Positions 58,958 to 59,614 of a stretch of 64,000 bases of DNA are shown in pieces. Source of the DNA: a virus (lineage: Duplodnaviria; Caudoviricetes); the IMG/VR virus record IMGVR_UViG_3300009037_000004, positions 73,434 to 137,433 of that record; one strand, given 5' to 3'. The notes under the pieces were generated by a model. The model searched no databases. It was not told the DNA's origin and saw only the letters and a list, made by a program, of their open reading frames with translations. Numbering within the stretch: the stretch's first letter is position 1; every line of letters begins with the position of its first letter. The position numbers and the translations under genes were made by a program.

Positions 58958-59096
58958 GAAACCGAACGGGCGAGTGGGTAAGCTGTTTTGGTTGCGATGG
59001 CTGGATTTGAACCAGCTACACTCTGACTATTAGTCAGATGCTCTACCCAATGAGCTACGTCGTCTTGTAGGCTTGCCCTGTTGCCCGTTCGGTTTC
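58958..59096 (-). ncRNA. Y-RNA-like tRNA mimic 1 (motif stem at the termini)
   Basis: 14 bp terminal stem, GCCTACAAGA, D/anticodon/T arms, followed by T7. Confidence 0.75.
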
Positions 59097-59102
59097 AGAG
59101 GT

Positions 59103-59188
59103 TGATCCGACATCTTTCCGTTTCCCTAACACGATCTCCCCGGATTACCGGCGACAGCGTTAGTGTACTAGGGCGGACAATCGGATCA
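59103..59188 (-). ncRNA. Irregular long hairpin RNA
   Basis: TGATCCGA/TCGGATCA, CTAACGC/GTGTTAG, CCGG-TAAT-CCGG. Confidence 0.45.
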
Positions 59189-59195
59189 GATAAGA

Positions 59196-59349
59196 GGTCA
59201 TGGGATGATGGGGGGACTTGAGGAGTTGAACCTCATCTTGTAGGCCCATCAGTTTGATCCCCGAAGAGATCGAGTAGTCGGGCGGGTACTCTTGATTCCA
59301 CATCAAGTGCCTGTCCGCCAGGCTCTAGTCCCCCCACCATCCCATGACC
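59196..59349 (-). ncRNA. tRNA mimic 2 (23 bp acceptor-like stem, motif domain in variable arm)
   Basis: ACCCGC...GCCTACAAGA insert with a CTTCGG hairpin. Confidence 0.75.
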
Positions 59350-59351
59350 AA

Positions 59352-59477
59352 GGCGCCGGAGCTGGGAGTCGAACCCAGTTTCTTGTAGGCCCAATCTGGT
59401 GACCTCCGAAGAGATCGAGTGACCGAGCGGGTATTGATCGATGGAATAATCGATTGACCGCCGTGGTCGTCTCCGGC
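59352..59477 (-). ncRNA. tRNA mimic 3
   Basis: GCCGGAG/CTCCGGC acceptor, T-arm, same insert motif. Confidence 0.75.
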
Positions 59478-59485
59478 AAAAGCAG

Positions 59486-59614
59486 TGGGGAGCCCTGGAT
59501 TCGAACCAGGATGTCTTGTAGGCCAGCCTTATTGGGACTCGAAAGTCCCGAGACGGTTAGCGGGTGTTTGCTTGATTTACCGTCAAGTGCCTTTACCAAT
59601 TCGGCCAGCTCCCC
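59486..59614 (-). ncRNA. tRNA mimic 4 (Tyr-like GTA, G33, ~58 nt variable region)
   Basis: Canonical D/T arms, loop CGGTAAA, same insert motif. Confidence 0.8.

What the first reader, a model, noticed from the sequence alone, without database searches (positions are those of the whole stretch)
58958..59614. Family of four tRNA mimics with one motif domain in two permuted topologies
Seen: GCCTACAAGA occurs in all four RNAs, each time directly after a helix that starts with GC. In mimics 2-4 the domain ACCC-GC...hairpin...GC-CTACAAGA (~55-60 nt) replaces the variable loop. In mimic 1 the same junction lies outside the tRNA core, closed by a 14 bp terminal stem and a T7 run, like a Y RNA. The anticodon loops differ (CTAATAG, TGTGGAA, TATTCC, CGGTAAA) and only mimic 1 keeps U33. 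Mimics 2 and 3 share ACTCGATCTCTTCGG; mimics 2 and 4 share GGCACTTGA..TCAAG. Inference: a constant protein-binding handle carrying interchangeable tRNA baits.
Basis: partly seen in the sequence, partly recalled or inferred. Interest (0 to 1): 0.82.

Follow-up and report, generated by a model that had tools for sequence, protein, structure and literature searches.

The report
Phage tRNA mimics sharing one handle
A large uncultured phage makes four tRNA-shaped small RNAs that all carry the same conserved structured "handle", placed in two different ways; they lie next to a gene for a protein that looks like the RNA-binding ring Ro60, so this is probably a new, phage-specific version of the Ro/Y-RNA particle.

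Summary
Four minus-strand RNAs (58958-59614) carry GCCUACAAGA exactly, and this 10-mer occurs nowhere else in the 137-kb contig.

The motif is the 3' tail of a conserved domain: a 7-bp helix P1, a 5x5 internal loop (NNCUC / ANNNN) and a helix P2. In mimics 2-4 this domain is an oversized variable arm of a complete cloverleaf. In mimic 1 it is circularly permuted, so P2 becomes the 14-bp terminal stem before U7.

Both topologies recur with heavy covariation in related jumbo-phage contigs. They lie within about 5 kb of a conserved 633-aa helical-repeat + vWA gene and on the same strand. Five unrelated large phage genomes have neither the RNAs nor the gene.

Pfam does not call the protein TROVE. 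Three independent fold or embedding searches nevertheless rank Ro60/TROVE first.

The RNAs match no Rfam family except tRNA, and they lack the YrlA motif. RNA-library contigs cover them with the inserts intact and show no splice joints.

Anticodon triplets are conserved among orthologues, but position 33 is mostly a purine. Canonical tRNAs of this phage never have a purine there.

My reading is a new variant of the Ro/Y-RNA theme. Binding to the protein and any bait function remain inferred.

This scan has already noted similar Ro60-like protein plus "handle RNA" pairs on other DNA. Those had a different motif (ACAGCAA) and a different protein family.

The parts
59626..59653 (-). Sigma-70-type promoter TTGACA-16-TATACT, about 10 nt upstream of the 5' end of mimic 4
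   Evidence: It is the only promoter-like site in 58700-59800 and matches 11 of 12 consensus positions. Equivalent TTGACA promoters precede the RNA sets in L005 and L128.
59486..59614 (-). Mimic 4: a full cloverleaf (acceptor GGGGAGC/GCUCCCC, a class-II-like D arm, a canonical T arm) with the handle as a 57-nt variable arm. The anticodon loop is CGGUAAA, Tyr-like, with G33.
   Evidence: Rfam tRNA 47.8 bits with the insert. R1 hit at 82.2 bits over 59494-59566. The same loop occurs in L005, L158 and G001.
59354..59477 (-). Mimic 3: a cloverleaf (acceptor GCCGGAG/CUCCGGC) with the handle as variable arm. The anticodon hairpin is abnormal, with a 6-bp stem and a 6-nt loop.
   Evidence: The minimum-free-energy fold equals the proposed structure, z -4.4. 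R1 hit at 81.5 bits over 59362-59433.
59196..59349 (-). Mimic 2: a cloverleaf with the handle as variable arm. The acceptor is extended to a 22-bp terminal stem. The loop is UGUGGAA, Pro-UGG-like, with G33.
   Evidence: Fold z -6.2. R1 hit at 74.6 bits over 59219-59288. Long-stem orthologues with R33-UGG loops occur in L005, L129 and L172.
59097..59195 (-). Spacer hairpin RNA between mimics 2 and 1. It lacks the motif.
   Evidence: Fold z -3.1. It is absent from the homologous locus L005. Its status is unclear.
58951..59096 (-). Mimic 1: the handle circularly permuted. P2 is the 14-bp terminal stem, followed by the AACA/ACUC loop, P1 and CUACAAGA. The payload is a tRNA-like core with a weak acceptor of 4-5 pairs. 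The RNA ends in U7 (58951-58957), a likely terminator.
   Evidence: Fold z -7.5. The same architecture was found by my descriptor in 10-12 related loci, with 0 hits in the reversed control.
58989..59064 (-). tRNA-shaped core inside mimic 1. ARAGORN calls it tRNA-Ile(AAU). The loop is CUAAUAG and an ACCA is encoded.
   Evidence: The Infernal alignment marks non-standard acceptor pairs.
56981..58882 (-). 633-aa protein: a small beta domain, about 300 aa of helical repeats, then a vWA domain with a MIDAS DxSxS motif. It is the probable partner of the handle.
   Evidence: Pfam finds vWA only. Foldseek on the full model ranks Ro60/TROVE structures first. VIA-align on residues 1-420 gives three Ro60 chains as the top 3 of 48,161. 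The nearest embedding clusters are TROVE/DUF2828.
53445..56975 (-). Conserved downstream genes: 325 aa of unknown family, a JAB-like protein, a small Ubl-like candidate, HNH and a ThiF/E1-like protein. These are context, not part of the RNA family.
   Evidence: Pfam. The same gene order is seen in L005, L006 and L007.

Best explanation
What it is. One strong promoter drives a polycistronic set of four tRNA-shaped non-coding RNAs. Each is built from two modules.

Module 1 is a constant 'handle'. It consists of:
- helix P1 (7 bp, closed by G-C and C-G);
- a 5x5 internal loop with an invariant CUC on one strand and an A on the other;
- helix P2;
- a single-stranded YACAAG tail immediately 3' of P1.

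Module 2 is a variable tRNA body with intact acceptor, D and T arms, so it should fold into the tRNA L-shape. Its anticodon loop keeps a recognisable anticodon triplet and A37/A38. It usually lacks U33 or has the wrong loop size, so most copies should not decode.

The handle is attached either as a giant variable arm or, permuted, across the 5'/3' ends. The second form is the Y-RNA layout.

How I infer it works:
- The invariant loop and tail nucleotides of the handle are the docking site for the adjacent Ro60-like ring protein (helical repeats + vWA).
- The resulting particles present different tRNA look-alikes to proteins that read anticodon loops. Candidates are host anticodon nucleases, synthetases and modification or repair enzymes. 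The particles would act as decoys, sensors or tethers during infection, by analogy with Ro60-YrlA particles.

What is shown and what is inferred.
- Shown: the RNA architecture, its covariation, its two topologies, its linkage to the gene, its presence in RNA libraries with inserts retained, and the purine-33 pattern.
- Inferred: protein binding, the identity of the partner, and the decoy or tether role.
For: Motif and domain.
- The motif occurs exactly 4 times and is unique in the contig.
- Domain covariation on 12 sequences: 88.9% of cells paired, and 13 of 18 pairs change on both sides.
- On 33 hits from 16 loci: 93.6% paired, 16 of 18 pairs change on both sides, and 0 of 500 shuffles reach this. 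Sliding the partners by one column drops pairing to 54-57%.

Permuted form.
- 16 strict hits in 10 loci, against 0 in the reversed control.
- With looser rules, 28 hits on the gene strand, 2 on the opposite strand and 6 in doubled controls.
- Each helix position shows 3-6 standard pair types.

Linkage to the gene.
- R1 hits lie within 2.5 kb of the gene in 16 of 63 loci, always on the gene strand.
- In 8 of 9 further genomes that carry the gene, hits lie mostly 3.5-5 kb downstream on the same strand.
- 0 of 5 large phage genomes that lack the gene have hits.
- 843 kb of other viral loci hold only one locus with hits, and that locus is a stretch of one of the gene-bearing genomes.

The protein.
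- The top 7 Foldseek matches of the full model are Ro60/TROVE entries, each over more than 530 alignment columns.
- The N-terminal 420 aa alone give 2nvo Z 9.6, 9l5y Z 8.9 and 1yvp Z 7.4 as the top 3 of 48,161 chains; the next hit is Z 6.6.
- The nearest embedding clusters are TROVE/DUF2828.
- The MIDAS residues D428, S430 and S432 are invariant.

The tRNA bodies.
- 27 of 33 have a 7/7 acceptor stem.
- Of 19 seven-nt anticodon loops, 12 have a purine at position 33. Among 42 canonical tRNAs of this phage, none does.

Expression. RNA-library contigs span the mimics with the inserts contiguous and show no joints.

Precedent. YrlA genes lie within 4 kb of Ro60 on the same strand and mimic tRNA (PMC4201824). 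A phage Ro60 binds phage-encoded Y-like RNAs (PMC12135203).
Against: - No sequence method links the protein to TROVE or DUF2828. Pfam finds neither, even at E<=10, in 35 family members.
- A family profile searched against PDB sequences hits vWA domains only.
- Foldseek on the N-terminal part alone finds nothing below E 0.001.
- The Z-scores of 7-10 come with rmsd above 11 A. That range is one in which helical repeats can match by arrangement alone.
- The handle lacks the Ro-binding consensus known from YrlA and Y RNAs, GNCGAAN0-1G.
- The RNAs also sit inside tRNA arrays. In G003 a cluster lies 230 kb from the gene. Part of the linkage may therefore be linkage to tRNA arrays, and the co-occurrence is confounded by shared ancestry of these phages.
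- One record with the gene, Rctr197k, has no R1 hit; that record is a partial genome.
- Conserved anticodon triplets, 7-bp acceptor stems and frequently encoded CC(A) also fit working tRNAs.
Confidence: 0.58

Rival explanations
1. They are working tRNAs. At least the Tyr-like one (mimic 4) would be a decoding tRNA whose class-II variable arm has been enlarged. Its anticodon loop would have been altered (G33) to escape host anticodon nucleases. The arm would then be an identity or protection element.
For: - No canonical tRNA-Tyr is found in the window's contig, which holds 42 tRNAs for 19 amino acids.
- None is found in the complete 376-kb genome G001, which holds 39 tRNAs.
- None is found in the annotated array of Rctr197k.
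- The loop CGGUAA(A/C) is conserved in the window, L005, L158 and G001, and G004 has ACGUAAA.
- Mimic 4 has discriminator A73, a class-II-type D arm and a perfect acceptor stem.
- About half of the relatives encode CC or CCA after the discriminator.
- Permuted copies in G001 have canonical loops and an encoded ACCA.
Against: - U33 is replaced by a purine in 12 of 19 seven-nt loops, and at least 8 further copies have 6-, 8- or 9-nt loops.
- Mimics 2 and 3 duplicate anticodons that the phage already covers with canonical tRNAs.
- The acceptor of mimic 1 has only 4-5 pairs.
- The window's contig ends inside the tRNA array, so a tRNA-Tyr gene may simply be cut off. G001 also lacks tRNA-Trp, so a missing amino acid is not unique to Tyr.
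Confidence: 0.2
2. The handle is real, but its partner is not the 633-aa protein. The partner could be another product of the operon (the 325-aa protein, or the E1/Ubl/JAB set), a tRNA-processing enzyme, or a host factor. The linkage to the vWA gene would then reflect only the shared location in tRNA arrays.
For: - The RNAs are interleaved with canonical tRNAs in G001, G003 and G004.
- One cluster lies 230 kb from the gene.
- The 325-aa gene is always fused tightly to the vWA gene and has no recognisable family.
- The handle lacks the known Ro-binding consensus.
Against: Same-strand proximity within about 5 kb recurs across proteins that are only 48-70% identical, and with the RNA set on either side of the operon. 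Ro60-type proteins are the one known protein class that pairs with adjacent tRNA-mimic RNAs (PMC4201824, PMC12135203).
Confidence: 0.17
3. The 55-60-nt inserts are introns or small mobile insertions that are removed to leave ordinary tRNAs.
For: The position in the variable region, together with the conserved boundary sequences, could in principle mark splice sites.
Against: - RNA-library contigs cover mimics 2-4 with the inserts contiguous and no joint is reported. Contigs can miss rare forms.
- Removing the insert would not leave a normal variable loop.
- The same domain in its permuted form spans a whole tRNA body and cannot be an intron.
- The internal loop nucleotides are invariant across distant phages, as expected for a functional RNA surface.
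Confidence: 0.03

Closest known systems
Bacterial and phage YrlA-type Y RNAs with Ro60/Rsr (Rfam RF02553; Chen et al. 2014, PMC4201824; Thermus phage phiLo Ro60 with Yrl1/Yrl2, PMC12135203)
   Same: - Small RNAs encoded within a few kb of a Ro-architecture gene (helical repeats + vWA), on the same strand.
- They are modular: a protein-binding stem plus a tRNA-like domain with genuine D and T arms.
- There are several paralogues per genome.
- Mimic 1 has the Y-RNA layout: a terminal 5'/3' stem, an internal loop, then a large tRNA-like module.
   Different: - There is no match to the YrlA model, even at E<=10.
- The GNCGAAN0-1G motif is absent.
- In YrlA the tRNA is permuted, with a closed acceptor-like stem and the ends on the anticodon side. 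Here the cloverleaf is complete, and the handle is the variable arm or extends from the acceptor end.
- The protein is not detected by Pfam TROVE, and it has an extra N-terminal beta domain.
Handle RNAs next to DUF2828 or Ro60-like vWA proteins, noted earlier in this scan on other phage and giant-virus DNA (unpublished AI notes). According to one of those notes, Dictyostelium Class I RNAs (PMC7919456) are related.
   Same: The grammar is the same: a short clamp helix followed at once by a conserved single-stranded motif beginning (U)ACA, then a variable payload that is often a tRNA or a tRNA part. The RNAs lie in tRNA arrays beside a Ro-like vWA protein. Class I RNAs likewise have a terminal stem with a conserved motif adjacent to its 5' strand and a variable remainder (PMC7919456).
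   Different: - The motif here is YACAAG, not ACAGCAA.
- The handle has a second helix and an invariant 5x5 loop.
- No member of this protein family hits DUF2828 or TROVE in Pfam.
- I did not test homology between the two handles.
Class II tRNAs (Tyr, Leu, Ser) and allo-tRNAs with long variable arms (PMC5389517)
   Same: A complete cloverleaf, a class-II-type D arm, and a helical variable arm emerging between the anticodon and T stems.
   Different: - The arm is about 45-60 nt with a conserved internal loop and tail, against 3-7 bp in class II tRNAs.
- Position 33 is mostly a purine and loop sizes vary.
- The same arm also occurs permuted around a whole tRNA.

Membership tests
YrlA / bacterial Y RNA (RF02553) | Match to the Rfam covariance model | tested here: not met
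   cmscan of 58850-59700 at E<=10 lists tRNA and chance hits only. No YrlA or Y RNA appears.
YrlA / bacterial Y RNA (RF02553) | GNCGAAN0-1G motif at the Ro60-binding site (PMC4201824) | tested here: not met
   The pattern does not occur on the minus strand within 58950-59620.
YrlA / bacterial Y RNA (RF02553) | tRNA-like domain with D and T arms able to form the elbow | tested here: met
   Canonical T loops (UUCRANU), GG-containing D loops, and Rfam tRNA scores of 47.8 and 49.6 bits. 27 of 33 relatives have 7/7 acceptor stems.
YrlA / bacterial Y RNA (RF02553) | Permuted tRNA: the acceptor-like stem is closed by a loop and the RNA ends emerge from the anticodon side into the Ro-binding stem | tested here: not met
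   The sequence shows open acceptor stems and intact anticodon hairpins. The handle is in the variable region or at the acceptor end.
YrlA / bacterial Y RNA (RF02553) | Encoded within about 4 kb of a Ro60 gene on the same strand | tested here: inconclusive
   The distance and strand criteria are met relative to the 633-aa gene. That this gene is a Ro60 orthologue rests on fold-level evidence only.
Ro60 / TROVE protein (PF05731) | Match to the Pfam TROVE profile | tested here: not met
   No hit for the protein, the contig, four related genomes, or any of 35 family members at E<=10.
Ro60 / TROVE protein (PF05731) | Helical-repeat (HEAT) domain followed by a vWA domain, with a fold like solved Ro60 | tested here: inconclusive
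   - Full model: the top Foldseek hits are Ro60/TROVE, E 2e-8 to 1e-5 over 530-580 columns, but TM is only 0.2-0.3.
- N-terminal 420 aa: the VIA-align top 3 are Ro60 chains, Z 9.6 / 8.9 / 7.4, with rmsd 11-14 A.
- Foldseek on that part alone gives E 0.11.
Ro60 / TROVE protein (PF05731) | vWA domain with a MIDAS DxSxS motif | tested here: met
   Pfam VWA over residues 423-546. D428, S430 and S432 are invariant in 35 sequences. vWA structures match at Z 13-15.
Ro60 / TROVE protein (PF05731) | Binds Y RNA or misfolded RNA | not testable with these tools
   No protein-RNA binding test is available here.
tRNA (RF00005), decoding | Cloverleaf scoring above the Rfam gathering threshold | tested here: met
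   Mimic 4 scores 47.8 bits and the core of mimic 1 scores 49.6 bits, against a threshold of 29. Mimics 2 and 3 are not reported by Rfam or ARAGORN, but they fold as cloverleaves.
tRNA (RF00005), decoding | 7-nt anticodon loop with U33 | tested here: not met
   Mimics 2 and 4 have G33, and mimic 3 has a 6-8-nt loop. Among relatives, 12 of 19 seven-nt loops have a purine at 33. Canonical tRNAs of this phage split into 36 with U33, 6 with C33 and 0 with a purine.
tRNA intron / insertion | A joined (spliced) form exists in RNA | tested here: inconclusive
   No joint appears in the contigs of four metatranscriptome runs that cover the RNAs with inserts retained. Contigs can drop rare forms.

The most novel reading that the evidence does not exclude
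These phages may make a panel of tRNA analogues that anticodon-reading enzymes still recognise, because the triplet and A37/A38 are conserved among orthologues. The analogues would be deliberately unfit for the ribosome (purine-33).

Each would be clamped by its handle to a Ro-like ring whose operon also encodes an E1/Ubl/JAB cascade. The particle would be a programmable trap or sensor for host tRNA-targeting defence nucleases. It might couple capture of the attacker to Ubl tagging or to RNA repair.

The handle (helix + YACAAG) would belong to a much wider, undescribed clamp-helix + UACA RNA class that runs from phages to giant viruses and amoebae.
Probability: 0.15. Interest if true: 0.88.

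Novelty: new variant of a known kind. Interest (0 to 1): 0.72.

Why it matters
- Ro60/Y-RNA particles are known from animals, some bacteria and a few phages, and what they do is still debated. This locus shows a distinct RNA solution to the same design. A self-contained handle can be grafted onto a complete tRNA at two different sites. It pairs with a protein family that sequence profiles do not recognise as Ro.
- The family is widespread in uncultured jumbo phages, with up to 13 copies per genome. That suggests much Ro-like biology is invisible to current annotation.
- The anticodon triplets are conserved while U33 is lost. This gives a directly testable hypothesis about phage counter-measures against tRNA-cleaving defence systems.
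- The handle itself is a compact, covariation-validated RNA motif that could be added to Rfam.

Tried and rejected
- Rfam at gathering thresholds and at E<=10 gave nothing but tRNA and tmRNA.
- blastn of the RNA region against 50,697 phage records found only a T-arm-sized hit to a Serratia phage tRNA.
- A loose DNA pattern (motif + T arm) over viral contigs returned mostly chance matches. It served only as a negative set.
- Sequence links from the protein to TROVE all failed:
  - phmmer and a family profile against PDB sequences gave vWA or noise only.
  - PHROGs and NCBIfam gave nothing useful.
  - A profile of residues 1-420 against 1.84 billion representatives found the family and a shorter sister family, both blank in Pfam.
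  - A second search seeded with the sister family reached no TROVE-annotated protein.
- VIA-align on the whole model was swamped by the vWA domain.
- The 325-aa neighbour has no Pfam, PHROG or NCBIfam hit and no usable atlas neighbour.
- I looked for the ACAGCAA handle of the scan's earlier findings in these loci. It shows no clear enrichment as an RNA element.
- In the read laying, the RNA-library contigs left the flanking vWA gene start and the neighbouring canonical tRNAs uncovered.
- An alternative pairing of ACAAG with the conserved CUUG of the anticodon stem is rejected. The stem covaries with its own 3' strand, while ACAAG stays constant.
I recomputed it from the loci instead.
- No profile-profile (HH) comparison with a TROVE alignment was run. 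I had no TROVE sequences by reference.
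Full report
**Setting**

The window is the last 64 kb of a 137,433-bp IMG/VR virus contig, estimated 75% complete. It holds a minus-strand array of 42 tRNAs and a tmRNA. The finding lies inside this array. Everything relevant is on the minus strand.

**Checking the observation**

GCCTACAAGA occurs exactly four times, at 59063-72, 59236-45, 59381-90 and 59514-23. It occurs nowhere else in the contig.

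Reading the minus strand gives four RNAs in a row:
- mimic 4: 59614..59486
- mimic 3: 59477..59354
- mimic 2: 59349..59196
- mimic 1: 59096..58958, followed by U7

A 99-nt hairpin (59195..59097) lies between mimics 2 and 1.

A near-consensus promoter, TTGACA-16-TATACT (59653..59626), sits about 10 nt before mimic 4. It is the only promoter-like site in the region.

Rfam's tRNA model aligns mimic 4 end to end (47.8 bits) with a 57-nt insertion in the variable region. It aligns the core of mimic 1 at 49.6 bits.

Minimum-free-energy folds of mimics 3, 2 and 1 reproduce the proposed structures, with z-scores of -4.4, -6.2 and -7.5.

**Anatomy of the shared domain**

In mimics 2-4 the region between the anticodon stem and the T stem reads, in order:
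- an A/C-rich strand ending in CCC;
- the P1 5' strand (7 nt, starting GC);
- NNCUC;
- the P2 hairpin (6 bp, UUCG-type loop);
- ANNNN;
- the P1 3' strand (ending GC);
- CUACAAGA plus 0-4 nt.

In mimic 1 the same pieces occur in circularly permuted order:
- a P2 strand at the 5' end;
- AACA;
- the P1 3' strand;
- CUACAAGA;
- a tRNA-shaped body;
- an A/C-rich strand;
- the P1 5' strand;
- ACUC;
- the other P2 strand at the 3' end, then U7.

P2 is therefore closed by a tetraloop in one topology and opened to form the RNA termini in the other.

**Comparative evidence for the RNA**

The gene just downstream (56981..58882, 633 aa) has many close relatives on large viral contigs. Homologous loci L005, L128 and L187 carry four to five RNAs of the same two kinds in the same place, behind a similar promoter.

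A covariance model of the handle plus T arm (R1) was built from 12 sequences. On these, 88.9% of cells pair and 13 of 18 pairs change on both sides.

Searching 66 sources gave full-length hits in 16 loci, all on the gene strand. On the 33 best hits:
- pairing is 93.6%;
- 16 of 18 pairs show double-sided changes;
- no shuffle out of 500 reaches this;
- sliding the partners by one column drops pairing to 54-57%.

The unpaired CUC, the A after P2 and the YACA(A/C)G tail are nearly invariant.

For the permuted type I wrote a descriptor: tail, P1, CUC and P2 around a payload of 35-180 nt.
- The strict version finds 16 true instances in 10 loci, and none in reversed sequences.
- A looser version finds 28 on the gene strand, 2 on the opposite strand and 6 in doubled controls.
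- Helix positions show 3-6 standard pair types.

Payloads are mostly tRNA bodies. One in L187 is a plain hairpin, so the handle can carry other cargo.

**Linkage to the gene**

Whole-genome searches found R1 RNAs in 8 of 9 further genomes that carry the gene. There are up to 13 copies per genome. Most lie 3.5-5 kb downstream of the gene on the same strand, that is, just past the conserved operon. A second cluster lies far away in G003.

Five large phage genomes without the gene have no R1 hit. 843 kb of other viral loci contain only a stretch of G003.

The RNAs are also interleaved with ordinary tRNAs. All positive genomes are relatives. The co-occurrence is therefore strong, but it is not independent of phylogeny or of tRNA-array location.

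**The protein**

Pfam sees only a C-terminal vWA domain. The TROVE profile hits neither the protein, nor the contig, nor four related genomes. Neither TROVE nor DUF2828 hits any of 35 family members, even at E<=10.

An AlphaFold model (pLDDT 78) shows a small beta domain, about 300 residues of helical repeats and a vWA domain.

Three lines of evidence, each weak on its own, point to a Ro-like architecture:
- Foldseek's best seven PDB matches for the full model are all Ro60/TROVE entries, over 530-580 columns.
- A model of residues 1-420 alone (pLDDT 83) gives no Foldseek match below E 0.001. An exhaustive VIA-align search nevertheless ranks D. radiodurans Rsr (Z 9.6), phage phiLo Ro60 (Z 8.9) and Xenopus Ro60 (Z 7.4) first, second and third of 48,161 chains. 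Generic HEAT proteins follow from Z 6.6.
- The nearest language-model clusters are TROVE and DUF2828, with scores of 0.81-0.86. That level is a lead only.

The MIDAS DxSxS motif is invariant.

My estimate is about 80% that this is a Ro-like architecture. Sequence-level homology is not shown.

Only one GenBank phage record (Rctr197k) has a homologue, and it is annotated as hypothetical.

RtcB is present in the four related genomes searched. In G001 it lies 3 kb from the gene. This echoes bacterial rsr-Y RNA-rtcB operons.

**The tRNA bodies**

Acceptor stems are 7/7 paired in 27 of 33 relatives. D and T arms are canonical.

The anticodon loops fall into orthologous groups with conserved triplets and A37/A38:
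- GUA: window mimic 4, L005, L158, G001, G004
- UGG: mimic 2, L005, L129, L172
- UCC, CAU, GAA and UUU in other loci

Position 33 is a purine in 12 of 19 seven-nt loops. At least eight further copies have 6-, 8- or 9-nt loops.

Among the phage's 42 canonical tRNAs, 36 have U33, 6 have C33 and none has a purine.

This pattern suggests selection for recognition by anticodon-reading proteins but not for decoding.

The caveat is the Tyr-like group. No canonical tRNA-Tyr is found in this contig, in the complete genome G001 or in the Rctr197k array. A working, nuclease-proof tRNA-Tyr therefore cannot be excluded for mimic 4.

**Expression**

Four wetland metatranscriptome runs from one study hold parts of the stretch. 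Their contigs span 58968-59118 (mimic 1), 59135-59476 (mimics 2 and 3), 59346-59604 (mimics 3 and 4), 59557-59704 and 59176-59326.

These contigs differ from the window at 0-1 positions. The inserts are contiguous and no joint is reported.

This shows presence in RNA libraries with the arm retained. Being contigs, they cannot give ends or abundance, and they cannot exclude rare spliced forms.

**Comparison with known families**

The closest published system is Ro60 with YrlA-type Y RNAs. Those are tRNA-mimicking, modular and encoded within 4 kb of Ro60 on the same strand (PMC4201824). Phage examples are known (PMC12135203).

Membership in YrlA fails on three defining points:
- there is no model match;
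- the GNCGAAN0-1G motif is absent;
- the topology differs: here the cloverleaf is complete, and the handle is in the variable arm or at the acceptor end.

The system therefore works like a Y RNA system, but it is not a YrlA.

Earlier AI notes of this scan describe Ro60-like/DUF2828 proteins with 'clamp helix + ACAGCAA' handle RNAs in over 100 other genomes. The grammar is alike. The motif, the second helix with its invariant loop, and the protein family all differ. I did not test homology between the two handles.

I found no paper describing this RNA family.

**Verdict**

The modular-handle reading is supported by covariation and by conserved synteny. The Ro-like partner is likely but unproven. 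The bait or decoy function is inference.

I class this as a new variant of the Ro/Y-RNA kind, of good interest.

Noticed in passing
window 59097-59195 (-): A 99-nt hairpin RNA lies between mimics 2 and 1. It lacks the handle motif (fold z -3.1) and is absent from the homologous locus L005. It may be a degenerate copy or a processing spacer.
   Followed up: partly
window 52145-52175 (-): GGCCUACAAGC, a one-mismatch copy of the handle tail, sits in the loop of an 8-bp hairpin that ends 3-4 nt before the 5' end of the phage tmRNA. It may be chance, or it may be a related display of the motif.
   Followed up: no
window 45760-63945; G001 whole genome: No canonical tRNA-Tyr was found in this contig (42 tRNAs, 19 amino acids) or in the complete 376-kb relative G001 (39 tRNAs, which also lacks Trp). 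G001 carries a tRNA with anticodon UUA, which ARAGORN calls tRNA-Stop.
   Followed up: partly
window tRNAs at 48782, 52615, 59793, 61708, 61932, 63141 (-): Six canonical tRNAs have C33 instead of U33: Leu-GAG, Val-GAC, Leu-CAG, Ser-UGA, Ala-GGC and Pro-UGG. This confirms an earlier first-reader note. None has a purine at position 33.
   Followed up: yes
L205:5050-6500 (-) = G001:C1:109050-110500: In G001 the two handle topologies alternate along the array. The permuted copies enclose tRNA-Arg(ACG) and tRNA-Leu(UAA) bodies with canonical loops, near-complete acceptor stems and an encoded ACCA. They could be precursors of working tRNAs.
   Followed up: partly
L187:1855-1951 (+) and L187:1616-1690 (+): One permuted handle carries a plain hairpin instead of a tRNA. 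A mini tRNA-like RNA has only acceptor and T arms plus a degenerate tail (UAACG). The handle is therefore not restricted to full tRNA payloads.
   Followed up: no
window 53445-56975 (-): The conserved operon after the vWA gene holds a 325-aa protein of no known family, a JAB-like protein, a small Ubl-like candidate, HNH and a ThiF/E1-like protein. The order is the same in L005, L006 and L007 (HNH is optional). This may be a Ubl or sulfur-carrier cascade tied to the RNP.
   Followed up: partly
proteins P0220-P0266, alignment A7: A sister protein family of 520-570 aa lacks the N-terminal beta domain. It is also blank in Pfam. It occurs on contigs up to 949 kb, and some sources label it archaeal or bacterial MAG.
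   Followed up: partly
G001:C1:123416-124681 (-): An RtcB RNA ligase gene lies about 3 kb upstream of the vWA gene in G001. RtcB is present in all four related genomes searched (G001-G004) but was not found in the window's incomplete contig.
   Followed up: partly
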